Assembly: GCA_041690595.1 (NCBI GenBank)
Contig: JAWLHB010000003.1
Location: 248,001 to 304,332, forward strand
Reading direction: 5' to 3'
Source: Lentisphaeria bacterium
GTDB lineage: Bacteria > Verrucomicrobiota > Lentisphaeria > JABSQK01 > JAWLHB01
DNA length: 56,332 nucleotides
Made by a program: the position numbers and the translations under genes. Shown here in pieces: positions 623 through 39,024 of this stretch. Within the stretch, counting starts at the first letter, position 1. Each line of letters begins with the position of its first letter. The notes under the pieces were generated by a model. That model saw nothing but the letters and a program-made list of their open reading frames with translations. It was not told the DNA's origin and did no database searches.

Positions 623-2323
623 TTAGATAGAGCCGGTCTGATGGAGAATGAAGTGGGCGACCGTTTCGACGGCGCGCCGCATCTCCTCGATGTCCAGTTG
701 CTCCTGGTCGGAATGAGCATGCGTCAACTTGCCCGAACCGAAGGTGAGAACGGGCATCTGAGGATACTCCGTGGCAAAGAGCCGCGAATCGCAGGAGACG
801 GTCCAGCCGCGAATAGGTTCATCGGCGCATGGAAGCCCGACGGCGCGAGCCGCCGCCATGGCCGTCTGCACCGTGGGTGACTTTGGATCCCCGTCAAAGG
901 CTGCATTGTGCAGCTTATCGTAGCTGACCGCGACGACGTCGCTGCCGGCTTCGGAACGACCGATGCGCCGCAGGTAGCTGTCCGCGCCCCGTTCGGCGGA
1001 GCGCGCAAAGCGGCTCATCACCTCCTCCATCGGATGGGTGGGGACGAATCCCTGTCCACCTTCGAGGAGCAGATCGCCAGCGGGCATGGGCGAGAGCGTG
1101 AGATGGATATCCTCCGCTCCGGCGCTCATGGCGATGGCACGGCGGGAGAAGACGAGACCACGGACGAAATGCGCCATCTTGGTGATGGCGCCGTCGTTCT
1201 CCAGGATGGAGCCCATGTGCCCGGTCGAGCCATGCACATCCACCACAAAGGCGTTCCCTTCGCGGCGCATGTCGTAGTGACTCGCGACCTTCGGCTTGCC
1301 GGTATCGGGATTGAGCACCTTTGTCTTGTCACCATACATGCCCACGTATGTCTCGAGGGCGAACTCGAGTACATCGCGCACCATGGTCTCCGCCTCGGCC
1401 GAAGGCTCCCGATCGAACTCGATGCGGAAGGAGACTTCACCGCAGATGCGGCTGGGATGTTCGCCATAGGAACCAATGCAGCCGTGGCAGGTCTGGACCG
1501 GGCGTTGCGGGAAGAGGTCGTGGCGGCTCTCCGCACGAATGGAACGTCCTTCCTTCTCCATCTCTTCATTGACAAAGGCGAAGAGTTCGAAAAGGTTCAG
1601 GCCGGGGCGGTCGCGCAGGAGGCACTGGTACCAGACCGCACCGCGATTGGCGGGATAAACCACGTTGTCGGTGCATTCCATGACCATGATCGACTCGTAC
1701 CGAGCCTTCAGCTCACGGTCGAGCGCCAGCGAAAGCGAGCCGTTGCCGCCGGTCTCTTCCTCGACCACGAACATGCAGGTCACGCCGCGATTGAGGGTGC
1801 TCTTCCGCTCGGCCAGGAGCTGTGACACCACCTTGAGAGCGGCGATGATGGAAACCACCTGCCCCTTGTCGTCGCAGGAACCACGGCCGAAAACGATCCC
1901 GTCTTCCACGCGAGGCGGGAAGTAGGGATGGACGATGTCTACATGCGCATTCAGCGCGAGAGAACTGCCCGCATTGCTGCTTTCCGCACCCGGAATCGTG
2001 AAGAGCATGTTGCTGCGCCCGGTATAGGTCTCCTCCGGGCTCAACCCCTCGGGACGCTCCCGCGTCTTCGTGAAGTGCAACTGCGAGAAGGCCGGATGTT
2101 CCGCGATTCGCGGGTTGATCGGGCGCCGTTCGGCTACGGCACCCCGCAGGCCGAAGGTCATCAGCTCCCGCTCGATGATGTCGAAACACGCGGCCTCGGC
2201 ATCGCGCATCCTGCTGACGTCGGCGGCGGGCGTGGAATCGATCCGGCACATTTCCACGAGCAGCTCGGTGAGATAGCCAGTGAAAGCGGTATCGCGGGTG
2301 ATAGCCTGAATCTGTTCGATCAT
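623..2323 (-). CDS. M20 family metallo-hydrolase (ArgE/DapE-like deacylase), enlarged, about 566 aa
   Basis: NAHVD, GRGSCDDKG, VEEE, VME and C-terminal HAH metal motifs. Start MIEQ at 2323 has an AAGGAA RBS just after the upstream stop. Confidence 0.85.
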   Translation of the reverse strand: MIEQIQAITRDTAFTGYLTELLVEMCRIDSTPAADVSRMRDAEAACFDIIERELMTFGLRGAVAERRPINPRIAEHPAFSQLHFTKTRERPEGLSPEETYTGRSNMLFTIPGAESSNAGSSLALNAHVDIVHPYFPPRVEDGIVFGRGSCDDKGQVVSIIAALKVVSQLLAERKSTLNRGVTCMFVVEEETGGNGSLSLALDRELKARYESIMVMECTDNVVYPANRGAVWYQCLLRDRPGLNLFELFAFVNEEMEKEGRSIRAESRHDLFPQRPVQTCHGCIGSYGEHPSRICGEVSFRIEFDREPSAEAETMVRDVLEFALETYVGMYGDKTKVLNPDTGKPKVASHYDMRREGNAFVVDVHGSTGHMGSILENDGAITKMAHFVRGLVFSRRAIAMSAGAEDIHLTLSPMPAGDLLLEGGQGFVPTHPMEEVMSRFARSAERGADSYLRRIGRSEAGSDVVAVSYDKLHNAAFDGDPKSPTVQTAMAAARAVGLPCADEPIRGWTVSCDSRLFATEYPQMPVLTFGSGKLTHAHSDQEQLDIEEMRRAVETVAHFILHQTGSI

Positions 2324-2334
2324 GGTGAGTTCCT

Positions 2335-3702
2335 TTAGTGGAGGATATGATCGCAGGCAGCTTCCAGGACGTCGAGACCTTCGTTGAAGGCGTCGAGCGG
2401 CGTGGTGAGCGGCGGTGCGATCTTGATACAGGCGCCGCCCAACCCAACGGGGGCGAACATGAGCAGCCCCTGCTGGAAGCAACGCTCGTTGATGGCAAGA
2501 GCGGTATCCCCGTCGGGCTCTTTGGTGCCGGGCTTCACCAGAAGCAAGCCGCCGACAAGCCCGCGGTAGAGAGCGATACCGATGTTGGCGGTATGCTTCT
2601 GGCGGATCTTCTCGAGGCGGCTGCCCAGCAGCGCGCCGAGTTCCGCCGCGTGTTCGCTCAGCTTCTCGTCGCACAGGAGCTTGAGATTGGCGATGGCGGA
2701 GACAACCGGCAGAGGACTACCGCTGTGGGTACTGGTCATCGATCCTGGCGGGTAGAGATTCATGATGTCGGTGCGGCCAATGACGGCTGCCAGGGGTAGC
2801 CCCGAAGAGATGCCCTTGCCGCAGCAGATCAGATCCGGCGTGAGGTCGTAATGTTCGAAGGCGAACAACTTGCCGGTGCGGCCAAAGCCGGACTGGACTT
2901 CATCCATGATCAGGACAACATCGTTCCGCTTGCACCATTCGCCCAGCTTGCGGGCATACTCGCCCGGCATGAAGTTCGGACCGATCCCCTGATACGTTTC
3001 GGAGATGACGCCGGCGACATCTTCGGGCGCGATGCCCTGGTCGGCGAGAGTCTTCTCGAAGACGTTGAAGGAGACATCCTCCTGGCGGAACCCATCGGGG
3101 AAGGGAACGTTGACAAAGCCGCCGGGAAGGGCGACGATCCATTCCTTGAGAGCGGGAATGCCACCCATCATCTGCGAGCCGAGGGTGCGGCCATGGAAGG
3201 CGCCGCCAAAAGAGACAATAACATGCTTGCGCGTGCCGTGCTTGCGAACGGCATAGGTGCGCGCCAGCTTCATGGCGTTCTCCGTGGCTTCACTGCCGGT
3301 AGAGAGCAGGAAGACCTTGTCCAGTCCGGCGGGGGCGAGATCGACGAGCATCTTGCAGAGCTGCGCCCGCGCCTCATGAGCGAAGACGTAGGTGGAGAGC
3401 AACGGTTTGTCGATGCACTCGCGTAGCGCGTCGCAGATCTCGGCCCTGCCATGTCCGGCATTGGCGACGAGTACGCAGCTGGACCAATCGAGCCACATGT
3501 TGCCCCAACGATCATGGACCTGAATCCCTTCGGCCCGATCCCAGATAACGGGGGGCTGCCCCTGCATGCTGATCGGCTCGTACTTCTCAAGCTGTTCGAA
3601 AACAGGCAGCGACTCGGGGACCGGCAGCTGGGTGCGGATGCGGCGGTACTTCGTCTCCACCTGCTCCACGGCCTGCGGCGTCATCGAATATTTGTGTTTC
3701 AT
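2335..3702 (-). CDS. Class-III PLP-dependent aminotransferase
   Basis: TGSEATENA, AFHGRT, MDEVQSGFGRTG, PLP-Lys in CGKGISSG, TSTHSG. Confidence 0.92.
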   Translation of the reverse strand: MKHKYSMTPQAVEQVETKYRRIRTQLPVPESLPVFEQLEKYEPISMQGQPPVIWDRAEGIQVHDRWGNMWLDWSSCVLVANAGHGRAEICDALRECIDKPLLSTYVFAHEARAQLCKMLVDLAPAGLDKVFLLSTGSEATENAMKLARTYAVRKHGTRKHVIVSFGGAFHGRTLGSQMMGGIPALKEWIVALPGGFVNVPFPDGFRQEDVSFNVFEKTLADQGIAPEDVAGVISETYQGIGPNFMPGEYARKLGEWCKRNDVVLIMDEVQSGFGRTGKLFAFEHYDLTPDLICCGKGISSGLPLAAVIGRTDIMNLYPPGSMTSTHSGSPLPVVSAIANLKLLCDEKLSEHAAELGALLGSRLEKIRQKHTANIGIALYRGLVGGLLLVKPGTKEPDGDTALAINERCFQQGLLMFAPVGLGGACIKIAPPLTTPLDAFNEGLDVLEAACDHILH

Positions 3703-21640: not shown

Positions 21641-24600
21641 CTATTCCTTGTTCCCCGTCGTCTTGAACTCAAGACGGGAGAGGATGCGTAACTGATAGAC
21701 AGTGAAACCGATCAACATGAAGCCGAGGATCCATGCCATGGCCGCGGCCGGACCAAACTTCAGATGCAGATAGGCCTTGTAGAAGATATGCAGGCCGGCT
21801 ACTTCCGTATTGCTGCCGCCACCGGTCATCGCCAGGATGTAGGCGCTGCTGTTCCAGGCGCCGATGAAAACACCGACGAAGTTGATGATGAGCAGCGGCT
21901 TGAGGATCGGGATCACGATGAACAGGATTTTGTCGATGAAGGTGGCGCCATCGATATCCGCCGCTTCGTAGAAGTCGGGAGCGATGCCCTTGAGTGCGGC
22001 AAGATAGATGAGACATCCGGGTCCCATGCCGGCCCATACCATCGGGATGACGCAGCAGATCATCGCCGTTCGATCATCATCCAGCCAACGATAGGCCTCG
22101 GGCTGCACCAGGTACAGGGTCGACATTCCGCCCATCTCACGGAGAAAGACCTGCAGATAGACAAAGATGCCCAGCATCACCAGACTGAAGATGCTGCCGA
22201 CCAGCAGCGACATGTAGCTGTTGTTCAGCGCACTTCCCATCGCCGTTCGAATCACCTTCCACAACAGATAGGCGAGGAAGGCGAAGATGGCGGCGATAAC
22301 CGCCCAAACGGGAAACCAGATCAAGCCGCTGTACCAGCTCGCCGCCTGGTCGTGCAGGGAAAAGATCTGTCTGACAAAGCCGTAGGCGAAGGTAAAGAGG
22401 GTGATACCCGCCCCCAGACAGAGGAGCGCCGGCCAATAACTCTGGTGGATGTAGAGCCGCTTGGCGAAGAAAAACATGATCGTAAAGAAGAGCAGGCCGA
22501 TGAGGATGTAGCCAAGCGCTGGAATGCTCATGACGATCGTATTCAGCACGCCGAATTCATTGGGCTCATAGAAACTGCGCCACAGGTAGATCACGACCAG
22601 CCCGGTGATCACCGCCGGCAGGTAGAAGATCGTCCGGAAGAGAATCTTGCCGTGGGGTATTTCGTCCAGAAGGACAGCCAGAATGACCGGTGGCAGGAAG
22701 GTCAGGCTGATGACCAGAATGCTGTACCTGACGGAGTTCCAGACAGCCATCCACCAAGCGTGATCCCAGAGGATGTTACCGAAGTTGTCAATGCCGACCC
22801 AGACGCTATCCCCCACGATCTGGTAGTCCTGGAACGCCATGAGGGAGCCAATCATCAGCGGTACGTACTGCCAGACAAAAATGGAGAGGACCGCCGGCAG
22901 GATGATGATGTAAGCGAGGCCGTACTTCTTGAAGCCCCATTTCTGCTTCTTCTCCGTATGCTGCACCTCCGGTGGCGTGAAGGCTTTGAAGATCTTGCGG
23001 AAGACCAGCGCAAAGGCAATCGCAATGAGGACCAGCAGGACTGCCGCTGCCGAGCGGCGCACCATCAACTGCCGCGCCGTCAAGACGCCGATCATCTTCT
23101 CGTTGGCGTTGCGTGCGGCAGCATTGGCCTCCACGTCGATGATGGCGATGCGTTCCTCCGTCACCTTGCGGTTGAGAGCCTCCAGCTTATCGCGCACCGC
23201 AAGCAGATCGGACTCCGCGGCTGACTCGATCTGTTGATTGAGGATAGCGGCGGCGCTACGCACCTTTTCCAGATCCTCGTCGGCGGCGGCTTGTTCGAGC
23301 AAGCCATGCACTTCCAGCGCCGGCGCCTTCAAGCCGGAATTCGCACGTTCATTCACGCCGGTTACGTGCTTGACCAGAACCATCGCCTCGCCCAGCAGAC
23401 TGGAAACGGTATACGGGCTCTTTGCTGTATCCGCGAGATAGACGTTCAGTTTGTCGCGCAAAACGAAGAGGCGCTCATTGATGCCCATAGCCTGTTCCAG
23501 CAGAAACTGGGCCTGCACCAGGCTGGCGTTATTTCGCCGGTCGATGGCCCTCTCCAGCAACTCGTTGGCGCGGATGAGATTGTCATCCTCGCTCCGCTTC
23601 TCGATGACTGGCTGGAGCATCGCGTGCACGGCGCGGATGGCGTCTTCATCGGCCCTGGGCATGCTGTTGCTCAATTCCAAGTCGCGAACAGCCTTGAGGG
23701 GATCGGTCATGTACTCATAGACACGCTGACTATTGCGACCGTAGGGCTCGGGCTTGCCGGTCTCGATGGCGATCTGGAAGATCTCCTCCCAGCCTTTCGG
23801 CGCGAGGCGGATGATGTCTTCGTAGCCAAACATCTTGAGGTAGCGCGGATTGACGAATCGTCCGAGTCCTCCTTCCACCATCAAGCGGGTCTGTACCTCC
23901 ATGGCCTCCTTACTGTCGATGAAGCGAAGGTATTCCCAAGCCGCGTCGCGAATCACTTGGCTCTCGACGCCGGAATAGATGCCATTCATGCGGGAATTCA
24001 GCTCGCCGCCGCGATTACCGCCTGGGCCGAAAGGAACCGGCACCATGCCAACCAAGTCGGGATTCAGGGTGGCAAAGAGCTTCTCGTCGATGTAGGTAGC
24101 CATGAAGCCAATCTGGCCAAGGTCCCACTTGCGCGTCTCATCCACTTCCATGGCGGCATAGCCATAGCGGCGATTCCCTTCATCATCGAACCAGATCTCG
24201 GCGCACAGACGGGTATAGTAGTCGATGGCCTCGGCACCGGCCCTGCTGTTGAAGGTAGCGTACCATTGATCCTCTTCCTCGTCGTACTCCATGGCTTCGC
24301 CGCCGGCGCTCCAAAGGAAGGTCACCCAGAACCAGGATTCCGACTTGCCCTTGCCGAAGCGAATGCCATAGGTGCCCTTCGCGGGATCCGTCAATTTGCG
24401 GCAGGCGCGATAGAGATCTTCCCACGTCCAGTCGTTCTGCGGGTAAGGCACACCGGCTGCTTCCAGAAGATCCTTTCTATACACCATGACCTTACCCAGA
24501 ACGCCACCGGAGGGCTTTGCCCAAACGTGTTCCTCACCGTCAGGCCCGCGGCGCCGGATCACCGGCCATGTCTTCGGGTGGATCTGAAAATCCTTCTCTT

Positions 24601-25090
24601 CCTCGGTCATCCCGGCAATGTAATTGTCTTCGGGAAGATCAAGAGGATAAAGAAATCCCTGCTGAATGTAGGTGTCCGATTGGCGAAAGTTCACATAGAT
24701 AATATCCGGGGAGACGCCGCCCGCGATCGCCATCAGCGGCCCCGAGTCCATGCTCTGGCCTTCGACGCTGATGCCGCTGAAACGGTGCAGCTCGATCTTG
24801 ACGTTGTCCCAGTCAAAATCCCCGTACGTGGCCGGATCCGCCTTGTACTTGGCGGCATAGCGCTCCTTGAAGATCTCGGGAAAGCGCTCGAGGAAAAGCT
24901 TCATCGTCTCGTAGTCGGCCTTGCTCTTCGTATCGACACGAGTCGGGTCGGGCAACGACCAGAGCTTCAGGTTGATGACTGTCTTGCCGTCTTTTTCTTC
25001 AATCCATCCGGCGCGGGTGAGTGATGATGCCACGACCATCGTAACGATGGCCAGCAAAGCGATAGTCTGTAGACGTACAAACCTGGTCAT
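21641..25090 (-). CDS. Fusion of extracellular sugar-binding protein and carbohydrate ABC permease (MalF-like)
   Basis: Signal peptide at MTRFV; IAGGVSPDI, YRKDLLEAAGV, WTWEDL, AAWEYLRF (SBP family 1); C-terminal FRTIFYLPAVI, YLAALKGI...YEAADIDGA, GPAAAMAW in one open frame. Confidence 0.9.
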   Translation of the reverse strand: MTRFVRLQTIALLAIVTMVVASSLTRAGWIEEKDGKTVINLKLWSLPDPTRVDTKSKADYETMKLFLERFPEIFKERYAAKYKADPATYGDFDWDNVKIELHRFSGISVEGQSMDSGPLMAIAGGVSPDIIYVNFRQSDTYIQQGFLYPLDLPEDNYIAGMTEEEKDFQIHPKTWPVIRRRGPDGEEHVWAKPSGGVLGKVMVYRKDLLEAAGVPYPQNDWTWEDLYRACRKLTDPAKGTYGIRFGKGKSESWFWVTFLWSAGGEAMEYDEEEDQWYATFNSRAGAEAIDYYTRLCAEIWFDDEGNRRYGYAAMEVDETRKWDLGQIGFMATYIDEKLFATLNPDLVGMVPVPFGPGGNRGGELNSRMNGIYSGVESQVIRDAAWEYLRFIDSKEAMEVQTRLMVEGGLGRFVNPRYLKMFGYEDIIRLAPKGWEEIFQIAIETGKPEPYGRNSQRVYEYMTDPLKAVRDLELSNSMPRADEDAIRAVHAMLQPVIEKRSEDDNLIRANELLERAIDRRNNASLVQAQFLLEQAMGINERLFVLRDKLNVYLADTAKSPYTVSSLLGEAMVLVKHVTGVNERANSGLKAPALEVHGLLEQAAADEDLEKVRSAAAILNQQIESAAESDLLAVRDKLEALNRKVTEERIAIIDVEANAAARNANEKMIGVLTARQLMVRRSAAAVLLVLIAIAFALVFRKIFKAFTPPEVQHTEKKQKWGFKKYGLAYIIILPAVLSIFVWQYVPLMIGSLMAFQDYQIVGDSVWVGIDNFGNILWDHAWWMAVWNSVRYSILVISLTFLPPVILAVLLDEIPHGKILFRTIFYLPAVITGLVVIYLWRSFYEPNEFGVLNTIVMSIPALGYILIGLLFFTIMFFFAKRLYIHQSYWPALLCLGAGITLFTFAYGFVRQIFSLHDQAASWYSGLIWFPVWAVIAAIFAFLAYLLWKVIRTAMGSALNNSYMSLLVGSIFSLVMLGIFVYLQVFLREMGGMSTLYLVQPEAYRWLDDDRTAMICCVIPMVWAGMGPGCLIYLAALKGIAPDFYEAADIDGATFIDKILFIVIPILKPLLIINFVGVFIGAWNSSAYILAMTGGGSNTEVAGLHIFYKAYLHLKFGPAAAMAWILGFMLIGFTVYQLRILSRLEFKTTGNKE

Positions 25091-25376
25091 TGGTGCAATT
25101 CCCCTTGCGACACTGATGTCCGCTCCTATTTCCACGCTCACGTAGTCTGCCCCGGTTGAAGGTTGGCAAGCCGTTCTCACCCACCGCGGGAAAGCATGAA
25201 CTTTACTTCCCAAAGTGCTCCCTCGCAACCGGAGACTAAACTTATTTGCGCGCCAAATCAGCCTCCCTTGCCTGCGGGCATTTGCCAATGGGCCACGCCA
25301 CGGCTTATGTTAACACAAACGGACCGAAAAGAAAGCGCCCACGAGCGTTGAACGTCTTATTGTCGAGAGCTTCACC

Positions 25377-26234
25377 ATGGCCGAGTCGATTCGCCAAGCC
25401 GCTGTAGCCGGCCGCTTTTATCCGGATGATACGGGGCGGCTGGTGGCCTTCATGCAGGAGCATGTGGCGCCGGAGAGCGCGGGGGGTGGCCGAGCGATCC
25501 GCGCCGTCATTGCGCCGCATGCGGGCTATCAGTTTTCCGGCCGGACAGCCGGGCAGGCCTTCCATCAGATCGCACCCGGCAGCTTCTCCCGTGCCATTGT
25601 CCTGGGCCCGACCCACTACCTCGCCTTTCGGGGCCTCGCGGTCGCCCCGCATGAATGCTTTCGCACTCCTTTGGGCGATGCCCGGATCGACACCGTGGCG
25701 GCCAGGGAGATAGCCGACGGCGACCACCGCTTCTCTCTGCGCCCCGACGCCCATCAGCAGGAACATGCCATCGAAGTACTCATACCGTTCATCCAGTACC
25801 TCAATCCTGATGCACTGTTGCTCCCCATCGCGGTCGGCGAGATGACCCTTCAGGACGTCTACGATGCCGCCGATCGCCTGCTGCCCTTCTGGAACGAGGA
25901 GACGCTGGTCGTTGTGAGCTCGGACTTCACGCACTATGGAGCCCACTTCAACTATTTTCCCTTCTCCACACGTGAGGCCGCCGAGAGCCTGCGGACGCTC
26001 GATGGAGGCGCCATCGAGCAGATCAAACTCGCCAGCGCTGAAGGCTTTCTGGCCTATGTGGAACGCACCGGCGCCACGATCTGCGGCCGATTTCCCATCG
26101 CGGTTCTGCTCGCCATGATGGAGAAGAAAGGTGGTCTGGACACCATTGACTTGATCGACTACACTACCTCAGGAGAACTCACCCGCGATTACAGCAGCTC
26201 CGTCAGCTATGCATCCATAACCATCAGCGACTGA
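25377..26234 (+). CDS. amrB: MEMO1 family protein (AmmeMemoRadiSam system protein B)
   Basis: RQAAVAGRFYP, APHAGYQFSG, LGPTH, EHAIEV, SSDFTHYG, TICG, SVSYA. Confidence 0.92.
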   Translation: MAESIRQAAVAGRFYPDDTGRLVAFMQEHVAPESAGGGRAIRAVIAPHAGYQFSGRTAGQAFHQIAPGSFSRAIVLGPTHYLAFRGLAVAPHECFRTPLGDARIDTVAAREIADGDHRFSLRPDAHQQEHAIEVLIPFIQYLNPDALLLPIAVGEMTLQDVYDAADRLLPFWNEETLVVVSSDFTHYGAHFNYFPFSTREAAESLRTLDGGAIEQIKLASAEGFLAYVERTGATICGRFPIAVLLAMMEKKGGLDTIDLIDYTTSGELTRDYSSSVSYASITISD

Positions 26235-26238
26235 TTTC

Positions 26239-26790
26239 ATGTCCACTCTGTCCACCGTCGAAAAGCGATTGCTCATCGATATCGCCAGATCGACCATCCG
26301 TGAGCATTTGAACAATCGGGAACTGGCGCTTCCGCCCGATCTTCCGCTCAACCTGTGGGAGTTTGGCTCTTCTTTCGTCACCCTCAGACAGGGGGACAAG
26401 TTGCGAGGCTGCATGGGTGACCTGGAAGCTCGCCTGCCCGTGGTCGAGAGTGTACGACACAACGCCCTCAATGCCGCCTTTGCCGATCCACGGTTTCACC
26501 CCGTTTCCATGGGAGAGCTGCCCGAGTTGCTTCTCGAAATCACTTGCCTCGGCCCCTCCCGCGTTGTCGCTGGGGTCAAGGACATCATTCTTGGCAAGCA
26601 TGGTATCGTCTTCCACAAGGATGGCCGACAGGCCGTATTCCTGCCTCAGGTCGCCACCGACAATGGCTGGGATCTGGAGACTACCCTCGGCCATCTCTCC
26701 AGGAAAGCTGGATTCGCCCCCAATGCTTGGCGCCAGGGTGCCACCTTCGACATCTTCGATGGGGAAGTCATCGACGAGAGCGACCTCTGA
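26239..26790 (+). CDS. amrA: AMMECR1 domain protein (AmmeMemoRadiSam system protein A)
   Basis: FVTL...LRGCMG, AAFADPRF, AVFLPQVA, KAG; 4 nt after the amrB stop. Confidence 0.92.
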   Translation: MSTLSTVEKRLLIDIARSTIREHLNNRELALPPDLPLNLWEFGSSFVTLRQGDKLRGCMGDLEARLPVVESVRHNALNAAFADPRFHPVSMGELPELLLEITCLGPSRVVAGVKDIILGKHGIVFHKDGRQAVFLPQVATDNGWDLETTLGHLSRKAGFAPNAWRQGATFDIFDGEVIDESDL

Positions 26791-33011: not shown

Positions 33012-33929
33012 ATGCTTTCCGGTACAGTCTTCGACATCCAGAAGTTCTCGATCCACGATGGACCGGGCATCCGTACGACGGTCTTCCTCAAAGGCTGCCC
33101 GCTGGAATGCCAGTGGTGTCACAATCCGGAATCCCAGGCCCGCGATCCTGAACTCTCCTTCAATGCCGGCCTGTGCATCGGCTGCGGCAGCTGCGTCAAC
33201 CAGTGCAGTCGCGACGGCCACCTTCTCTCCGACCGGGAGCACCGCCTCGACCGAACATCCTGTGTCGTCTGCGGCTCCTGCGCCAAGGGGTGCTACACCG
33301 GCGCGCTGGAAGTCATCGGCAGGGAGATGACGGTCGATCAGGTTATCGCCGACGTCCTCCGGGACCGCCCCTTCTATGAAACGTCGGGCGGCGGTATGAC
33401 CATCTCCGGCGGCGAGCCCCTGATGCAGATCGACTTCACCGAAGCCCTGCTTCAACGCGCGGCGGAGGAGAAGCTCCATACCTGCGTCGAGACGTGCGGT
33501 CATGCGTCATGGCAACGCCTCGAACGCATCGTCCCCCTGACCAATCTTTTCCTCTACGATTTCAAGGAGGCGGACCCGGAGCGTCATCGCCAGCTCACCG
33601 GCGTCAGCAACGACCAGATCCTCGCCAATCTTCACCGGTTGCATGCAGCCGGGGCGGCAATCCTCCTGCGCGTTCCCTTTGTCCCCGGCGTCAATGCCAC
33701 CGATGATAATATCGCAGCCCTGGCAGAACTTTCCCACCAGCTGCCGCTTCTGCAAGGTATCGAACTGATGCCCTACCATCGCCTGGGCGAAGGCAAGCAC
33801 GAACGACTGGGGCGGGGGGCACCACGCCAGATGATTGCTGAGGCCCCCACCCCCGCCATGATCGACGATTGGATCGCCCGTTTCGCTGGACTGGGCGTCA
33901 AACTTGTCAACGAACCTTCAACCAGCTGA
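33012..33929 (+). CDS. Glycyl-radical enzyme activating enzyme (radical SAM with ferredoxin-like insert)
   Basis: FDIQKFSIHDGPGIRTTVFLKGCPLECQWCHNPES (CxxxCxxC), CIGCGSCVNQC and CVVCGSCAKGC, SGGEPL, ETCG, LMPYHRLG. Confidence 0.95.
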   Translation: MLSGTVFDIQKFSIHDGPGIRTTVFLKGCPLECQWCHNPESQARDPELSFNAGLCIGCGSCVNQCSRDGHLLSDREHRLDRTSCVVCGSCAKGCYTGALEVIGREMTVDQVIADVLRDRPFYETSGGGMTISGGEPLMQIDFTEALLQRAAEEKLHTCVETCGHASWQRLERIVPLTNLFLYDFKEADPERHRQLTGVSNDQILANLHRLHAAGAAILLRVPFVPGVNATDDNIAALAELSHQLPLLQGIELMPYHRLGEGKHERLGRGAPRQMIAEAPTPAMIDDWIARFAGLGVKLVNEPSTS

Positions 33930-33935
33930 GCCTCC

Positions 33936-36176
33936 ATGCACCTAGCCGAGCATCCCACCCGCTTTGCCCTCACGTCTGAACTGCGCGACATGCTTGAACA
34001 ATCGGCCAGACGCGCGGCCAGCCCCCCACCCCAGCAGCGGCAAGATCTTCAGACCCACGCCTTCTTCGAGCTCTATGCGGAGTTGCCGTTGCGTGAACGG
34101 CAGGCACGTTCCCTTGCTTACGCCATGGTCAATGAACCCGTCATTGTCTTTCCTGACGACCGCCTGCATGGCGTTTTCTACGGCGGCGGCGATCCCCAGC
34201 TGGGCGGGACTGGACCGTGGGAAGCATACTGCAGTGTCGCCGATGGCCGGCGCCGCGAAGCCGCCGAAAATCCCGAGATGCTTCCTTTCCATGATCCCGG
34301 CGGATCCTTTATCATCAGCACCGGCGCTTTCCCCGGCCATATCGCGTGGAATTATCATGACGTGCTCGAGATCGGTGTCGACGGGCTGATCGAGCGCCAT
34401 CGACAAGCCCTCGCCGATACTCGGGATATGGTCGCGGCGGAGTACTACCGGGGGGTGATCATCCTGCTCGAAGCTGTGCTGACCTGGAACGACCGCCATG
34501 TCGCCGCACTTCGCGAGCTGCTGAGCAGCGCGAGGGATCCCCAAGCTCGGCAGCGGCTGACGGAATCCATCGACCTCCTCGAACGGGTCCCTGCCCAGCC
34601 GGCGCGAACGTTCCTCGAAGCCCTGCAGAGTTTCTATTTCATCTGGTTGGCGGTTATGTATGAGGTACCTTACGGTGGCAACAGCCCCGGCCGGCTCGAC
34701 TACTTTCTCTGGCCCTATCTGCAACGTGAATACGCCGATGGCAGCCTCGATCGCGAGCAGGTTACCCACCTCCTCTGCGAGCTTTTCATCAAGATCGACG
34801 AGCGCGTACACGCCTCGGACGGCCACGTCAACACCATTGTTGTCGGCGGTGTCGCTCCCGATGGCAGCGATGCCGTCAATCCGCTCAGTTGGATGATGCT
34901 CGACGCCTTCGAGGCGTTACCGCTCACGCATCCTGCCGTCTATACCCGCGTCAGCAGCCGGAATCCGCCGGAGTACCTGGCCCGCTGCGTCGACTACCTC
35001 GTCAACGGCGGCAATCGTGCCCAGATCCTGGCCGACGAGGCGATCATCACCGCGATGATGCAAGACCATGCGATGCCCTTTGAGGATGCCGCCATGTACA
35101 TGTGCGGCGGGTGCATGGAGATCGCTCCCCACGGGCTCAATTCCGACCTCCTCTTCGCTTTCCTCTACAACGTTCCGAAGACGGTCGAGCTGCTGGTTAC
35201 GGGCGGTACCTGCCTGATCACAGGCAAGCCGAGGCTCGAAATGCCTGGCAGCCTCCGCGATTACCCGGATTTCCCAGCCTTCTACGCTGCCTGTGTCGAT
35301 GAGATCCGGCGCGTTCTGCATGCCAAGTTCCGTACGCTGGACATCTACAGCGAGACCATGGCGCACTGGCGTCCAGCCTTCCTCCAGTCCAGCATGACCG
35401 GCGACTGCCTGCTTCGCGGCCGTTCTCAGCAGGATGGAGGCGCCCGCTATGCGGACTATGGCGGCACCCCCCTGGGTCTTCAGAATGCGGCCGATGCGCT
35501 TTATGCCATCAAGCGTGCCGTCTTCGACGATCACATCTGCACCGCCGATCAGCTCATGGCAGCGCTAACCGCCAACTTTGTCGGCCACGACGCCCTGCGC
35601 CGACGCCTCCTCGCGATCCCCAAGTTCGGCGAAGGCGACCCCGGCGCCGAGGCGATGATGGCACAGCTCCTGGCGGATCTCTGCCATGTCTTCGACAGTT
35701 ATACAAATCGCCATGGCGGCCGCGTCAAACCCATCATCTTCACCTTTGTCTGGGCTCCGGAGATGGGGCGTAACCTGGGCGCTTCGGCTGACGGACGACT
35801 TGCCGGTGAACCCATCGGCCATGGCCTGACGCCACAGCGCCTCGGCTCGCGCCGCGGCCTCACCACCGCCATCGATGCAAGCACGCAGATCCCCCTGCAC
35901 CTGGTACGTGGCGGCGCCTCCACCATGTGGGACATGGATGCCGCCAGCTTGCGTACCGACCTTCTTCAGGCCATTGTGCAGGCTTTCATCAATCGCGGCG
36001 GGCAGATCTTCCAGGGCAATACCAGCGATGTCGCCGAACTCGAACGCGCACTCCTTTCCCCCGCCGATTATCCTAACCTCATTGTGCGCGTGGGGGGCTT
36101 CTCCGCCCGCTTTATCAACCTCAATCCGCAGCTTCAGCAGGAAATCGTCCAACGCCACCGGCACCTCACACGATGA
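33936..36176 (+). CDS. Glycyl radical enzyme 1 (PFL-like superfamily, non-PFL class)
   Basis: PARTFLEALQ, GRLDYFLWPY, Cys loop CGGCME (C393/E395), ASADGR, C-terminal LIVRVGGFSARF (G721). Confidence 0.93.
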   Translation: MHLAEHPTRFALTSELRDMLEQSARRAASPPPQQRQDLQTHAFFELYAELPLRERQARSLAYAMVNEPVIVFPDDRLHGVFYGGGDPQLGGTGPWEAYCSVADGRRREAAENPEMLPFHDPGGSFIISTGAFPGHIAWNYHDVLEIGVDGLIERHRQALADTRDMVAAEYYRGVIILLEAVLTWNDRHVAALRELLSSARDPQARQRLTESIDLLERVPAQPARTFLEALQSFYFIWLAVMYEVPYGGNSPGRLDYFLWPYLQREYADGSLDREQVTHLLCELFIKIDERVHASDGHVNTIVVGGVAPDGSDAVNPLSWMMLDAFEALPLTHPAVYTRVSSRNPPEYLARCVDYLVNGGNRAQILADEAIITAMMQDHAMPFEDAAMYMCGGCMEIAPHGLNSDLLFAFLYNVPKTVELLVTGGTCLITGKPRLEMPGSLRDYPDFPAFYAACVDEIRRVLHAKFRTLDIYSETMAHWRPAFLQSSMTGDCLLRGRSQQDGGARYADYGGTPLGLQNAADALYAIKRAVFDDHICTADQLMAALTANFVGHDALRRRLLAIPKFGEGDPGAEAMMAQLLADLCHVFDSYTNRHGGRVKPIIFTFVWAPEMGRNLGASADGRLAGEPIGHGLTPQRLGSRRGLTTAIDASTQIPLHLVRGGASTMWDMDAASLRTDLLQAIVQAFINRGGQIFQGNTSDVAELERALLSPADYPNLIVRVGGFSARFINLNPQLQQEIVQRHRHLTR

Positions 36177-38281
36177 TGACGCCACCAGACATGAAATCGG
36201 ATGCCATCTGGCATCAGCTTCTGGCCATCGAGCCTTCGCCCCGGATCGAGCGACTGCTTCAACGCCATCGCCAACAGGCCATGCTCTCCGAGACCCATCA
36301 CATCACCGATGTCGCCGCCGCCAACGATTGGACGGAGGCGATGATAGCCGCCTATGCGGCGACTACCGGCCGGAGCGCCATTCATCGCCGCGCCGCCGCA
36401 CTTGCCTCCTTTGCCGAAACGGCGCCCATCGCGCCACCGCAGGCAGACGACATATTCCTGGGCAGCCAGGCCTTCTTCCCCGCCATCAGCCGCGCTGCCC
36501 GCCACGCCGAGCTGATCGATCTGGGATGGGCGCGGAATGCTGGCCATATCGTGCCCGGCTACGAGAGCTTTCTTCGATTTGGCATCACGGCCATGACCGC
36601 TATCCTGAGGGAAGCTCGCAGCCACGTAACCAGCCTGGAGCAGGCGGAAACGTTCGAGGCATTCGAGACTGCGCTGCTCGCCTTCCAGCACTACCTGCGG
36701 CGGCTTGCCGACCTCGCCGACGATACGGCGGCACCACATCTGCGGCACCTGGGCCTTCACGCGCCGGACAGCTACGAGCAGGCCCTTCACCTTCTCTGGG
36801 CAATGCAGCTCTTTCTCCATGCGGAAAACCCCGCCTCCGCCATCTCCTTCGGGCGGGCGGACAGGTACCTCTTTCCCTTTCTTCTACTCGATCAGCGGAC
36901 TGGGCGCCTCGACTGGCAGCAGGCATTCGACCTGACCGCGGCCTTCTTCATCAAGTGTTGCGAGGGTGGGGAGAGCCAGAATCTCACCCTTGGCGGCATC
37001 GATGAACATGGCACTGATGCGACCAACCCGCTCTCTTTCCTCATGCTGGCGGTCATGAACCGGCTGCGTCTGCCCCAGCCGTCGCTCTGTGTACGGCTGC
37101 ATCCCACTGCCCCTGCCAGCTTTGTGGCGGCCGCCTGTGAGCTGGCGGCCAGCGGTTGCGGCCAGCCCGGCTACCTGAACGACACTGCCGTCATTCCCGC
37201 CCTCCAAGCCGTGGATATCCCTCTGGAACGAGCCCGCAATTACGCCATTGTCGGCTGCTACGAAGCCACCCCGCATGGTGACTGCTATCCGAACACCGTC
37301 GGCGGCGGTGCTCATCTGGTCAAGGAGCTGGTCACCTGGCTGAACCAAGTCGCGGATACGCCTCCACCGACTCACGAGGCGCTGCTGGAAGGATGGCTGA
37401 CCCACATGCAACGGCATTTCGACCAGCTTCGCGCCACGGCCTGGCAACCAGCCTGGAATCACTGGCGCGATCACGCCCCCTCGCCCTTCACCAGCATGCT
37501 GGTGCAAGGGTGCATCGAAACGGCCAAGCCACTGGAAGCCGGCGGCGCTCGCAGCAACCTCTTCGGCATCAACATGGTTGGCCTCGGCACCGTGATCGAC
37601 AGCCTCCACGTCATTGACCAGCTTGTGTATCGTGATCAGTCTCTTTCTCTGCGCCAGATCATGGATGCCGTCCTCGACGACTTCCCAGACGAGAGCCTTC
37701 GCCTGCGCCTGGCCGCTGTCGGCGGTCGGTACGGCACCGACAGCGAGGAGACCAATCAACTGGCGGCATTGCTATCCGATCGCCTAGCCCGCCTGATCCT
37801 CGACCAGAAGATGGCGCATGGTGTTCGCCCCTACCCCGCTTTTTTCCGCTTCTACGCCGACATCTTCAGCCGTGAAACCGCTTCCCCCGACGGCCGACGC
37901 TGCAACGATCTGCTGAGCTACGGGGTCGGCGCCAATCTGGCAACCACCACTACCCCAACGGCCGTGCTGCGTTCGGCCTGCCATGTGGCCCATGCCCTCT
38001 GTGCCTGCGGCAATCCGCTGGCCATCACCCTCTCGCCCGCCGATGTCGCCGGTGGCGCCGGTCGGCAGCGCATTGCCGCGCTCATCGAGACCTACTTCAA
38101 AGACGGCGGCTTTCACCTGCACCTGAATGTGGCGCACGCGAAGCAGTTGCGCGAGGCGATGGTAAGCCCGGAGCGGCACGGCGATCTCATGCTGCGTATC
38201 AGCGGCTTCAGCGCCCGATTCATCAAGCTCAACCCGGTGCTTCAGCAGGCCCTTGTCGACCGCGCTGAACAGGGCCGCTGA
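36173..38281 (+). CDS. Glycyl radical enzyme 2 (PFL-like superfamily, non-PFL class)
   Basis: SFGRADRYL, QNLTLGG, PQPSL, GQPGYLND, Cys loop IVGCYE (C362/E364), ASPDGR, LMLRISGFSARF (G678); ATGA overlap with GRE1. Confidence 0.92.
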   Translation: MMTPPDMKSDAIWHQLLAIEPSPRIERLLQRHRQQAMLSETHHITDVAAANDWTEAMIAAYAATTGRSAIHRRAAALASFAETAPIAPPQADDIFLGSQAFFPAISRAARHAELIDLGWARNAGHIVPGYESFLRFGITAMTAILREARSHVTSLEQAETFEAFETALLAFQHYLRRLADLADDTAAPHLRHLGLHAPDSYEQALHLLWAMQLFLHAENPASAISFGRADRYLFPFLLLDQRTGRLDWQQAFDLTAAFFIKCCEGGESQNLTLGGIDEHGTDATNPLSFLMLAVMNRLRLPQPSLCVRLHPTAPASFVAAACELAASGCGQPGYLNDTAVIPALQAVDIPLERARNYAIVGCYEATPHGDCYPNTVGGGAHLVKELVTWLNQVADTPPPTHEALLEGWLTHMQRHFDQLRATAWQPAWNHWRDHAPSPFTSMLVQGCIETAKPLEAGGARSNLFGINMVGLGTVIDSLHVIDQLVYRDQSLSLRQIMDAVLDDFPDESLRLRLAAVGGRYGTDSEETNQLAALLSDRLARLILDQKMAHGVRPYPAFFRFYADIFSRETASPDGRRCNDLLSYGVGANLATTTTPTAVLRSACHVAHALCACGNPLAITLSPADVAGGAGRQRIAALIETYFKDGGFHLHLNVAHAKQLREAMVSPERHGDLMLRISGFSARFIKLNPVLQQALVDRAEQGR

Positions 38282-38283
38282 TC

Positions 38284-39024
38284 GTGTATACGACCGAGCA
38301 ATACCTTCTCGCCGCCGCCGCCGCCCTGATGGTCGGCTTTTCCAAGACCGGGCTTCCCGGAACCGGCATTCTGGTCGTGCCGATCATGGCCCTCATCTTC
38401 GCAAGCACGCGCGAATCCATCGGCCTGCTACTGCCCATGCTGATTGTCGGCGACATCTTTGCGGTCGCTTACTACAAGCGCCACGCACAGTGGAAGCAGC
38501 TCTGGCGACTCTTTCCCTGGGTGGCCCCCGGCATGGCCGCCGGCTACCTTCTGCTGCTGTGGACGCGCGACAAGAGCTTCGACCTGGCGCCGTTATTGGG
38601 CGCCATTGTTCTGGCACTGGTCATCGTCGACCTGTTGCGCATGCGCTACCAGTGGGTGAACATGCCGCACCAGACGTGGTTTGTCGGCGGCACCGGCACA
38701 CTTGCCGGCTTCACGACGACAGTCGGCAATGCGGCCGGCTCCATCATGAATATCTATTTTCTCAGCCTGGATCTGCCCAAGGCGCAGTTTGTCGGCACCG
38801 CCGCCTGGTTTTTCATGATCGTGAACCTGGCAAAGGTTCCCATATTCGTGCACAACGACATGATCACCACCTCGTCGCTGGGCTTCGACGTGCTGATGAT
38901 TCCAGCCATTGCGGTGGGCGCCGTGCTTGGCATCCTCCTCCTGCCGGTGCTGCCGCAGAAAGCCTTCAACCTGATCGTTCGGGTGCTTGCCGCCGTCGCC
39001 GCCCTGAAGTTGATCATCAATTGA
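38284..39024 (+). CDS. TauE/SafE (TSUP) family membrane transporter
   Basis: [47 protein letters not shown]; about 8 TM; GTG start 2 nt after the GRE2 stop. Confidence 0.88.

What the first reader, a model, noticed from the sequence alone, without database searches (positions are those of the whole stretch)
33012..39024. One activase, two different glycyl radical enzymes and a TauE/SafE transporter: candidate undescribed anaerobic radical pathway
Seen: four same-strand genes with gaps of 6 nt, a 4-nt ATGA overlap and 2 nt. Both GREs keep the radical Gly (RVGGFS, G721; RISGFS, G678) and a Cys-x-Glu loop (GCME; GCYE). They are clearly divergent from each other and short (746 and 702 aa), and only one activase is present. 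Established: PFL has an adjacent Cys-Cys pair, whereas CxE occurs in GRE eliminases (CutC, glycerol/propanediol dehydratases, HypD, isethionate sulfite-lyase) and in hydroxyphenylacetate decarboxylase. TauE/SafE proteins export sulfite or sulfonates. Inference: either two sequential radical steps (e.g. dehydration then C-S cleavage of a sulfonated sugar or polyol, with product export) or a heterodimeric GRE served by one activase. No microcompartment shell, aldehyde dehydrogenase or small Fe-S subunit genes are adjacent, so it does not match the classic cut/pdu/hpd/bss layouts.
Basis: partly seen in the sequence, partly recalled or inferred. Interest (0 to 1): 0.85.

Follow-up and report, generated by a model that had tools for sequence, protein, structure and literature searches.

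The report
Capless radical enzymes sharing one activator
Two distantly related oxygen-sensitive radical enzymes, both from unstudied families that lack a lid segment present in the studied relatives, sit beside an activating enzyme that likely also switches on four scattered relatives; they likely break down different sugar-derived compounds, and the neighbouring transporter gene is likely a bystander.

Summary
The four genes, gaps and motifs are as described; the proposed sulfonate pathway or heterodimer is not supported. GRE1 and GRE2 are 27% identical, belong to two separate uncharacterised clades, and are adjacent in 0 of 98 related loci. No TauE ortholog lies in those loci, and orthologs occur in 5 genomes with no GRE. 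The Arg/Gln/Arg sulfonate triad of C-S lyases is absent (0 of 3 in GRE1; 1 unconserved of 3 in GRE2). The real pattern is wider. This genome has 7 GREs and 2 activases, a closed relative chromosome has 18 and 3, and Victivallales arrays hold up to 6 GREs with one activase. All 7 GREs here lack 8-16 residues of the beta2-beta3 'cap helix' segment that a 2026 review calls conserved. Best reading: independent CxE/His radical C-O lyases for different sugar-derived substrates, served by a shared activase. Substrates and shared activation are inferred, not shown. The scan noted 'several GREs, one activase' before in other genomes (e1-974694, e1-5562774, e1-3863459, e1-760253).

The parts
33012..33929 (+). 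Glycyl-radical enzyme activase (radical SAM with ferredoxin-like insert). One of only two in the genome; likely the shared activase for six GREs.
   Evidence: TIGR02494 over cut-off, all specific activase equivalogs below cut-off. Genome count 2. Tree groups it with activases that neighbour GRE1-, GRE2- and STCVE-clade enzymes (support 0.91-0.94, n=18).
33936..36176 (+). GRE1: uncharacterised 'GGCME' clade GRE. H135, C393, E395, G721 invariant in 112 of 112; cap segment 19 aa; near-invariant NRAQ motif on beta5; Gly-Gly (G247/G248) where glycerol dehydratase has His281/Ser282.
   Evidence: AF2 pLDDT 95.7; Foldseek best hits PD and GD, TM about 0.9, 23-25% id
36173..38281 (+). GRE2: uncharacterised 'VGCYEA' clade GRE. 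H125, E267-S-Q-N270, C362, E364, T375, G678 invariant in 61 of 61; cap segment 14 aa; relatives often lie beside an IclR regulator and an activase.
   Evidence: AF2 pLDDT 94.2; Foldseek best hits GD and PflD, TM 0.87, 22-24% id
38284..39024 (+). TauE/SafE-family membrane protein. A usually single-copy gene in this lineage; likely co-transcribed here but not linked to GREs elsewhere.
   Evidence: PF01925; ortholog distribution and context

Best explanation
GRE1 and GRE2 are intact members of two separate, uncharacterised glycyl radical enzyme clades that lack part of the cap segment; each likely works on its own as a radical C-O lyase on a different sugar-derived compound, and the adjacent activase likely serves both plus four orphan GREs elsewhere in the genome. 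Steps: (1) the activase cleaves SAM and installs the radical on G721 and G678 (motifs shown; chemistry from established GRE knowledge; sharing inferred from gene counts). (2) The radical moves to C393 or C362 and the thiyl radical abstracts H from a carbinol carbon (established for the family). (3) E395 or E364 deprotonates the hydroxyl, and the beta1 His (H135 or H125, equivalent to glycerol dehydratase His164) helps a neighbouring C-O bond break, giving a deoxy-carbonyl product by dehydration or ring opening (inferred from residues). (4) The missing 10-15 cap residues likely leave a larger or more open pocket than in glycerol or propanediol dehydratase (deletion shown; consequence inferred). 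(5) An aldehyde or ketone product would be reduced by an Fe-alcohol dehydrogenase, which sits in 6 distinct relative arrays but not here (inferred). The TauE gene is likely a chance neighbour. The substrates are not identified.
For: Separate clades with support 1.00 (n=44 and n=52), patristic distance 4.36 against 1.92 for GD-CutC; neither groups with six reference eliminases/isomerases. Catalytic residues invariant. GRE:activase counts: 7:2 here at 97% completeness; 18:3 in a single 8.2-Mb chromosome checked ORF by ORF, with 16 GREs lacking an adjacent activase and one activase free-standing; 7:2, 7:2, 9:2, 9:2, 11:3 in five genomes of 95-99% completeness; 10:1, 10:1, 11:1, 11:1 in four MAGs. 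Arrays of 3-6 full-length divergent GREs in 9 of 50 GRE2-clade loci, 8 of them with exactly one activase in the locus. Internal control: this genome's second activase groups (0.93-0.98, n=9) with activases that, in the 7 of 8 loci whose GRE was placed in the tree, sit beside the RVCGWN Gly-loop clade, and it sits beside such a GRE itself. That leaves six GREs with R[VI][SAG]G[FY] loops for the window's activase. Cap segment is 29-30 aa in 7 of 7 reference GREs, 19-20 in 112 of 112 GRE1-clade, 14 in 61 of 61 GRE2-clade, 13-21 in the other five GREs of this genome. Solved GREs spanning the region are 7-17 residues longer and the models show no helix there. Same-strand neighbours of relatives include glycoside hydrolases, sulfatases and GFO/IDH/MocA oxidoreductases; arrays carry IclR and Fe-ADH.
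Against: No activity or substrate was measured. CxE also occurs in decarboxylases (IAD Glu502; PMC13598205 passages), so it does not fix the reaction class. Sugar-related neighbours are probably background in these genomes (URO-D-like genes number 64 here); I measured no background for the others, and no neighbour of GRE1 recurs. This genome lacks the IclR ortholog. Gene counts do not prove shared activation: orphan GREs could be silent, or use an activase that TIGR02494 misses. Several gut relatives are near 1:1 (7:7, 6:5, 5:6, 6:5, 3:3). The counted genomes were chosen for having many GRE candidates, and most counts are match rows, not checked genes. The sole activases of two Armatimonadota MAGs and the free-standing one in the closed chromosome lie outside the window activase's clade, so there is no single 'hub' lineage. 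Deep nodes of both trees are weakly supported (FastTree only).
Confidence: 0.6

Rival explanations
1. Same architecture (independent enzymes, shared activase), but the chemistry is not C-O cleavage of sugars: one or both are decarboxylases or C-N/C-C lyases acting on non-sugar or carrier-bound substrates that the open, capless pocket admits.
For: CxE is shared with decarboxylases. GRE1 replaces glycerol dehydratase His281/Ser282 with Gly-Gly and has an unusual near-invariant NRAQ on beta5. No importer or kinase recurs in the arrays. IclR regulators also sense aromatic and small acids (recalled).
Against: Best sequence and fold matches are GD, PD and PflD, with HPAD, BSS and AAD ranked last among GREs. 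The beta1 His is invariant. Fe-ADH in arrays fits an aldehyde product.
Confidence: 0.2
2. Two sequential radical steps on one sulfonated sugar or polyol (dehydration, then C-S cleavage) with TauE exporting sulfite or sulfonate.
For: Tight gene spacing. GRE2 has Arg121 at the IslA Arg189 position. Sulfatases occur in 10 related loci. In one GRE1 fragment search HpsG ranked first, by 0.3 bit.
Against: The two-Arg-one-Gln anchor used by all three C-S lyases (PMC13450708 section 5.6.3) is absent: 0 of 3 in GRE1 and 1 of 3 in GRE2, with Arg at that site in 6 of 61. No TauE ortholog in 167 other loci; Pfam found one TauE among 20 other multi-helix ORFs, on the opposite strand beside a distant GRE. 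None of 29 TauE orthologs has a GRE or activase within 1.5 kb. 5 of 5 tested genomes with the ortholog (94-97% complete) have no PFL-like gene. No aldehyde-handling gene was seen between the steps.
Confidence: 0.06
3. GRE1 and GRE2 form a heterodimer (or members of the battery form mixed oligomers), one partner covering the other's missing cap, activated by one activase.
For: 4-nt overlap. 25 of 39 genomes with a GRE2 relative also hold a GRE1-clade gene. Both lack the cap segment. Recurrent sets of the same clades share operons.
Against: Never adjacent in 98 related loci and in one array together only once, with another GRE between (L054). Minimal IclR-GRE2-activase loci exist in small Clostridia genomes, one of which (G278) gave no GRE1 match. 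Both keep complete catalytic sets. The review describes only homodimers and homotetramers; the word 'heterodimer' does not occur in it.
Confidence: 0.07
4. The adjacent activase is specific to one or two of these enzymes, and most orphan GREs in such genomes are rarely or never activated or use an unrecognised activase.
For: The review reports few cross-activations, mostly between near-identical Gly loops (PMC13450708 section 2.5). Gly loops differ among the orphans.
Against: Orphan clades are full-length and conserved across phyla at 40-65% identity with invariant catalytic residues. The only other TIGR02494 matches in this genome are weak (E>=1e-7).
Confidence: 0.07

Closest known systems
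B12-independent glycerol dehydratase (PDB 1R8W) and GRE 1,2-propanediol dehydratase (5I2G, 9RCO-Q)
   Same: Fold (TM 0.87-0.92), CxE loop, beta1 His equivalent to His164, Gly loop; top Foldseek and phmmer matches.
   Different: 22-27% identity; His281/Ser282 replaced (G/G in GRE1, S/A in GRE2); Tyr339 and Tyr640 positions are V298/F602 and S268/F558; cap segment 10-15 residues shorter; no alcohol dehydrogenase or microcompartment gene seen adjacent.
GRE sugar isomerases PflD and YbiW (1,5-anhydrohexitol-6-phosphate C-O lyases; PDB 8ID0, 8YJO, 8ID7)
   Same: CxE and beta1 His; best phmmer matches for GRE2; a similar beta2 loop (ENPASAIS vs ESNASSLS).
   Different: About 27-28% identity; separate clade; cap segment deleted; no PTS or aldolase genes adjacent here; each E. 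coli enzyme has its own activase.
C-S lyases IslA/IseG and HpsG (PDB 7KQ3, 5YMR, 6LON)
   Same: GRE fold, CxE.
   Different: Sulfonate triad absent; ranked below GD, PD, PflD and CutC in fold searches; cap region 11-17 residues longer in them.
Shared activation by E. coli PFL activase (PflB and TdcE), HPAD-AE and IBSS-AE cross-activation
   Same: One activase acting on more than one GRE (PMC13450708 section 2.5).
   Different: Known cases are close homologues with identical or near-identical Gly loops; here up to six paralogs at 26-31% identity to GRE1 or GRE2 with differing loops would share one activase.

Membership tests
Glycyl radical enzyme superfamily (PFL-like) | PF02901 + PF01228, 10-stranded barrel, Cys loop and C-terminal Gly loop | tested here: met
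Glycyl radical enzyme superfamily (PFL-like) | Cap helix between beta2 and beta3, described as conserved across GREs | tested here: not met
   Segment 19 and 14 aa against 29-30 in 7 references; no helix there in the models. Location from the review legend and IAD cap 390-396 relative to Cys500. This marks a variant and does not remove them from the superfamily.
Glycyl radical enzyme superfamily (PFL-like) | Radical installed by an activase; glycyl radical EPR signal | not testable with these tools
   Needs anaerobic activation
GRE 1,2-eliminases / isomerases | [quoted passage not shown] | tested here: met
   C393-M-E395 in 112 of 112; C362-Y-E364 in 61 of 61
GRE 1,2-eliminases / isomerases | Demonstrated elimination or ring-opening reaction | not testable with these tools
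   No assay possible
Named classes GD, PD, HypD, CutC, HpfG, HpsG, PflD/YbiW, IAD, HPAD, PFL | NCBIfam cut-off reached or clustering with the reference in a tree | tested here: not met
   Best equivalog scores 146-258 bits against cut-offs of 1000-1150; separate clades from GD, PD, HypD, CutC, PflD, YbiW, PflB. IslA, HpsG, HPAD, BSS, IAD, AAD, HplG were not in the tree; they were compared only by HMM, phmmer or Foldseek.
C-S cleaving GREs (IslA/IseG/HpsG) | Arg + Gln on beta1 and Arg on beta8 anchoring the sulfonate | tested here: not met
   GRE1 A131/H135/I600; GRE2 R121 (6 of 61)/H125/A556. Mapped through HypD equivalences given in PMC8473560 and alignments. The beta8 position is an indirect mapping that assumes no gap and a 20-residue tag in 6VXC.
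Pyruvate formate-lyase | Adjacent Cys-Cys pair on the Cys loop | tested here: not met
   GGCME and VGCYE against ACC in PflB
GRE microcompartment (GRM) loci and small-subunit GREs (HPAD, BSS) | Adjacent shell, aldehyde dehydrogenase or small Fe-S subunit genes | tested here: not met
   Immediate flanks are a PMT_2-like gene and rmlA and the intergenic gaps are 6 nt or less; the whole genome was not searched for shell genes.
Conserved AE-GRE-GRE-TauE system | Gene order conserved in relatives | tested here: not met
TauE/SafE (TSUP) exporters | PF01925 match | tested here: met
   99.8 bits against 32.6
TauE/SafE (TSUP) exporters | Sulfite or sulfonate as the transported compound | not testable with these tools
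   Contexts of orthologs vary (metK-pfkB-ahcY, nucleoside phosphorylase, others)

The most novel reading that the evidence does not exclude
Lentisphaeria, Kiritimatiellae, Armatimonadota, Planctomycetota and some gut Clostridia carry a previously undescribed radiation of 'capless' glycyl radical enzymes: at least seven recurring orthologous clades, one of them without the Cys-loop Glu. They form a battery of up to about 20 enzymes per genome, switched on by one to three broad-specificity activases, and carry out new radical reactions on substrates larger than those of known GREs, such as rare sugars released from complex glycans. This locus holds the genome's broad activase and two of those clades.
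Probability: 0.45. Interest if true: 0.8.

Novelty: new variant of a known kind. Interest (0 to 1): 0.6.

Why it matters
[quoted passage not shown] This locus offers a direct test of the first and last points: one activase against six paralogs about 26-31% identical, with a second activase and its RVCGWN-loop partner as a built-in specificity control. A broad activase would be a practical reagent for activating uncharacterised GREs. The capless clades are a large untested pool of anaerobic radical chemistry in sediment and gut glycan degraders, now annotated as 'pyruvate formate lyase' or 'HypD' (source names). The sulfonate pathway as first proposed should be dropped.

Tried and rejected
Sulfonate pathway and obligate heterodimer: see rivals. 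Recent transfer of the block: GC and GC3 match the neighbours; TauE GC3 is a little higher (0.82 against 0.71-0.77), not interpreted. URO-D-like neighbours (16 loci): rejected as background, since 64 copies occur in this genome. Insertion of the activase and GREs between an ancestral PMT_2 gene and tauE: the PMT_2 gene beside TauE in L181 gave no match to the window's. TauE about 10 kb from a GRE in two genomes of one genus: opposite strand, eight to nine unrelated ORFs between, and TauE follows metK-pfkB-ahcY. Hidden third activase: the best weak TIGR02494 match (C57, E 1e-7) is a 364-aa ORF that I read by eye as an AmmeMemoRadiSam-type enzyme (label recalled, not scanned); the C13 match was fetched but not examined. 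Promoter and terminator scan: not above shuffles. ESM Atlas: only PFL-like clusters. IQ-TREE on activases timed out, so FastTree was used. A GRE2 beta8 fragment search gave no IslA alignment. Complex prediction was not run: the pair is 1448 residues against a 1000 limit, and a pass on trimmed halves would follow from likeness to solved homodimers. The 1.84-billion-protein profile search was not run. Literature searches listed no paper on these clades, on capless GREs or on GRE expansions in these phyla. The library lacks most subscription journals, and I did not open supplements, where similarity-network tables (for example of PMC6453916 and PMC11528403) may include these sequences as unassigned clusters.
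Full report
Observation. The four ORFs, their lengths, spacing (6 nt, ATGA overlap, 2 nt) and motifs are exactly as reported. The activase passes TIGR02494 and no specific activase model. Neither GRE reaches any NCBIfam cut-off. Both carry PF02901 and PF01228, and the last gene is PF01925. GRE1 and GRE2 are 27% identical and 21-29% identical to seven reference GREs. AlphaFold models are confident (pLDDT 95.7 and 94.2) and match the GRE fold, best to glycerol and propanediol dehydratases and PflD at 22-25% identity. Neighbours are a PMT_2-like gene, prfA, rmlA and a tail-specific protease.

The genome context changes the question. The genome (8.1 Mb, 97% complete) has seven GREs and two activases. 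Four GREs have no activase nearby; the fifth sits with the second activase. I did not determine the organism. Named relatives of both enzymes come from Lentisphaeria, Kiritimatiellae, Armatimonadota, Planctomycetota, Hydrogenedentes, Chloroflexi and Clostridia. In a sample of 251 genomes of the same phylum, 51 had a match to GRE2 at E<=1e-30 (only four candidates per genome were scored) and the best outside this genome was 36% identical, so this operon was not found among those searched.

Is the gene order conserved? No. Keeping near-full-length clade members by HMM score left 50 and 48 loci; fragments and distant GREs were dropped. A GRE1-clade gene adjoins a GRE2-clade gene in 0 of 98. They share an array once (L054) with another GRE between. 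Many loci are short contigs, which limits this test. Of 39 genomes with a GRE2 relative, 25 had a GRE1-clade match at E<=1e-100 and 14 had none (completeness not given). TauE: phmmer and tblastn recovered the window's own gene and nothing in 167 other loci. A Pfam scan of the 21 multi-helix ORFs found only the control and one TauE beside a distant GRE on the opposite strand. Orthologs exist in 29 of those 39 genomes, none with a GRE or activase within 1.5 kb, in 29 of 42 phylum genomes, and in 5 of 5 tested genomes that have no PFL-like gene. Against this reading, two genomes of one genus have TauE about 10 kb from a GRE, but there it follows metK-pfkB-ahcY on the other strand.

What is conserved. 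GRE2 relatives have an activase directly downstream in 14 of 50 loci, GRE1 relatives in 2 of 48. An IclR regulator occurs in 15 distinct loci (17 BLAST rows, one locus fetched twice and one a near-duplicate), once fused to the GRE2 relative, and an Fe-alcohol dehydrogenase in 6 distinct arrays plus one more among the 7 loci clustered. Twenty of the 50 GRE2-clade loci hold two or more full-length GREs and ten hold three to six (L054 and L056 among them, L056 a near-duplicate of L052). A tree of 191 GREs (21 near-duplicates removed; FastTree, 672 columns) shows recurring orthologous clades recognisable by their Cys loops: GGCME (GRE1; 1.00, n=44), VGCYEA (GRE2; 1.00, n=52), STCVE, GGCTE, NSCMG (no Glu), xGCYE with an RVCGWN Gly loop, and others. 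This genome has one each of seven types, and the arrays are reshuffled sets of them. GRE1 and GRE2 are far apart (4.36 against 1.92 for GD-CutC), and the six reference eliminases and isomerases fall elsewhere. Deep nodes are poorly supported.

Activase sharing. GRE:activase counts are 18:3 in a single closed 8.2-Mb chromosome, checked ORF by ORF, with 16 GREs lacking an adjacent activase; 7:2, 7:2, 9:2, 9:2 and 11:3 in five genomes 95-99% complete; 10:3, 10:1, 22:9, 15:4, 10:1; and 11:1, 11:1, 15:2, 10:2, 10:2, 10:2, 24:4, 5:1, 16:8 in MAGs of unstated completeness. These are match rows from genomes picked for having many GREs. Several gut relatives are near 1:1. In activase trees the window's enzyme groups with activases that neighbour three different GRE clades, while the second activase groups with those beside RVCGWN-loop GREs. 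This fits the review's view that the Gly loop helps set specificity, and leaves six GREs to the window's activase. The review (PMC13450708: abstract, sections 2.5, 4.3, 4.4, 5.6, 5.7, 5.8, 7 and passages read) describes the activase as specific to each GRE and lists few cross-activations, all between close homologues. Sharing here is inferred from counts only.

Active sites. PMC8473560 (passages) equates IslA Arg189/Gln193/Phe682 with HypD Arg156/His160/Thr645, and PMC6453916 (passages) gives the same triad for IseG. Mapped through HypD and GD alignments, the triad positions are A131/H135/I600 in GRE1 and R121/H125/A556 in GRE2, with Arg at 121 in 6 of 61. Both clades keep an invariant beta1 His and CxE, the pair that the review assigns to dehydration in glycerol dehydratase. 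GRE1 adds near-invariant PYGGN, D295, NRAQ and D404; GRE2 adds E267-S-Q-N270, T375 and D563. That the GD positions His281, Ser282, Tyr339 and Tyr640 line the pocket is recalled; a paper search for them found nothing.

Cap segment. The stretch from the helix Lys to the beta3 Gly is 29-30 residues in 7 of 7 references, 19-20 in 112 of 112 GRE1-clade, 14 in 61 of 61 GRE2-clade and 13-21 in the other five GREs of this genome; a few array clades (TACNR, VGCCR) keep 30. Solved GREs that span the region, including IslA, IseG, HpsG, HPAD, AAD, HplG and PFL2, are 7-17 residues longer, and the models have no helix there. The review places the conserved cap helix between beta2 and beta3. IAD's cap (390-396, Cys500; PMC13598205 passages) lies at the same distance from the catalytic Cys as the deleted stretch. 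That a missing cap means a larger pocket is inference.

Mechanism and verdict. Most likely two independent radical C-O lyases for different sugar-derived substrates, activated by a shared activase (0.6). Rivals: other chemistry in the same architecture (0.2), hetero-oligomer (0.07), narrow activase with idle orphans (0.07), sulfonate pathway (0.06). Sugar substrates rest on residue type and on neighbours (glycoside hydrolases, sulfatases, GFO/IDH/MocA, Fe-ADH, one aldolase, one FGGY kinase) that may be background. Nine literature searches listed no description of these clades (PMC11528403 and PMC6325248 seen as passages only; no supplements opened). Earlier scan notes report several GREs with one activase in other genomes; no note matched these proteins by sequence. 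Classed as a new variant of a known kind, interest 0.6: the locus as a fixed four-gene pathway is not real, but it is a good entry point to a large untested, capless GRE radiation with apparently shared activases.

Noticed in passing
G000 contig C40:8850-11138 (-); relatives in L050, L057, L059, L060, L062, L064, L065, L071, L073: A recurring GRE clade with the Cys loop NSCMG, i.e. no Glu at the CxE position, conserved across phyla; it cannot use the usual eliminase base.
   Followed up: partly
G000 contig C19:97652-100881 (-): GRE with an RVCGWN Gly loop beside its own activase; both form matching clades in relatives, a natural specificity control.
   Followed up: partly
L065/L205 (Victivallaceae MAG), L073, L071, L045, L051, L052, L080, L208: Arrays of IclR, three to six divergent GREs, usually an Fe-ADH, and one activase; L065 holds six GREs of 3-kb-flanked order around the genome's only detected activase.
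   Followed up: partly
L059:7094-11551 (+); protein P0059: A GRE2 relative fused to an IclR regulator domain.
   Followed up: no
L219:2254-4638 (-) and 1364-2389 (-) (G285): A GRE with an unusual Gly loop (RIHGTFV) beside a very divergent activase.
   Followed up: no
L227:5247-6248 (-) (G285): A free-standing GRE activase with no GRE within the 11 kb fetched, between a GH10 gene and an unknown gene, in a chromosome with 16 orphan GREs.
   Followed up: partly
G000 whole genome; contig C9:92101-96556: 64 URO-D-like (PF01208) genes; two flank the C9 GRE directly.
   Followed up: partly
L235:1-4225 and L236:3-3284: The TauE ortholog follows metK, a pfkB kinase and ahcY on one strand, and lies beside a nucleoside phosphorylase in L189, which hints at a SAM-cycle or nucleoside role rather than sulfite export.
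   Followed up: partly
window 21641-25288 (-): A 1215-aa fusion of an extracellular solute-binding domain and an ABC permease domain.
   Followed up: no
window 25377-26790 (+): Memo-like and AMMECR1 genes side by side; a candidate partner radical SAM gene lies on contig C57 (identified by eye only).
   Followed up: no
P0083, P0085: Distant GREs carrying an F5/8 type C (PF00754) domain, which would suit carbohydrate binding (domain function recalled).
   Followed up: no
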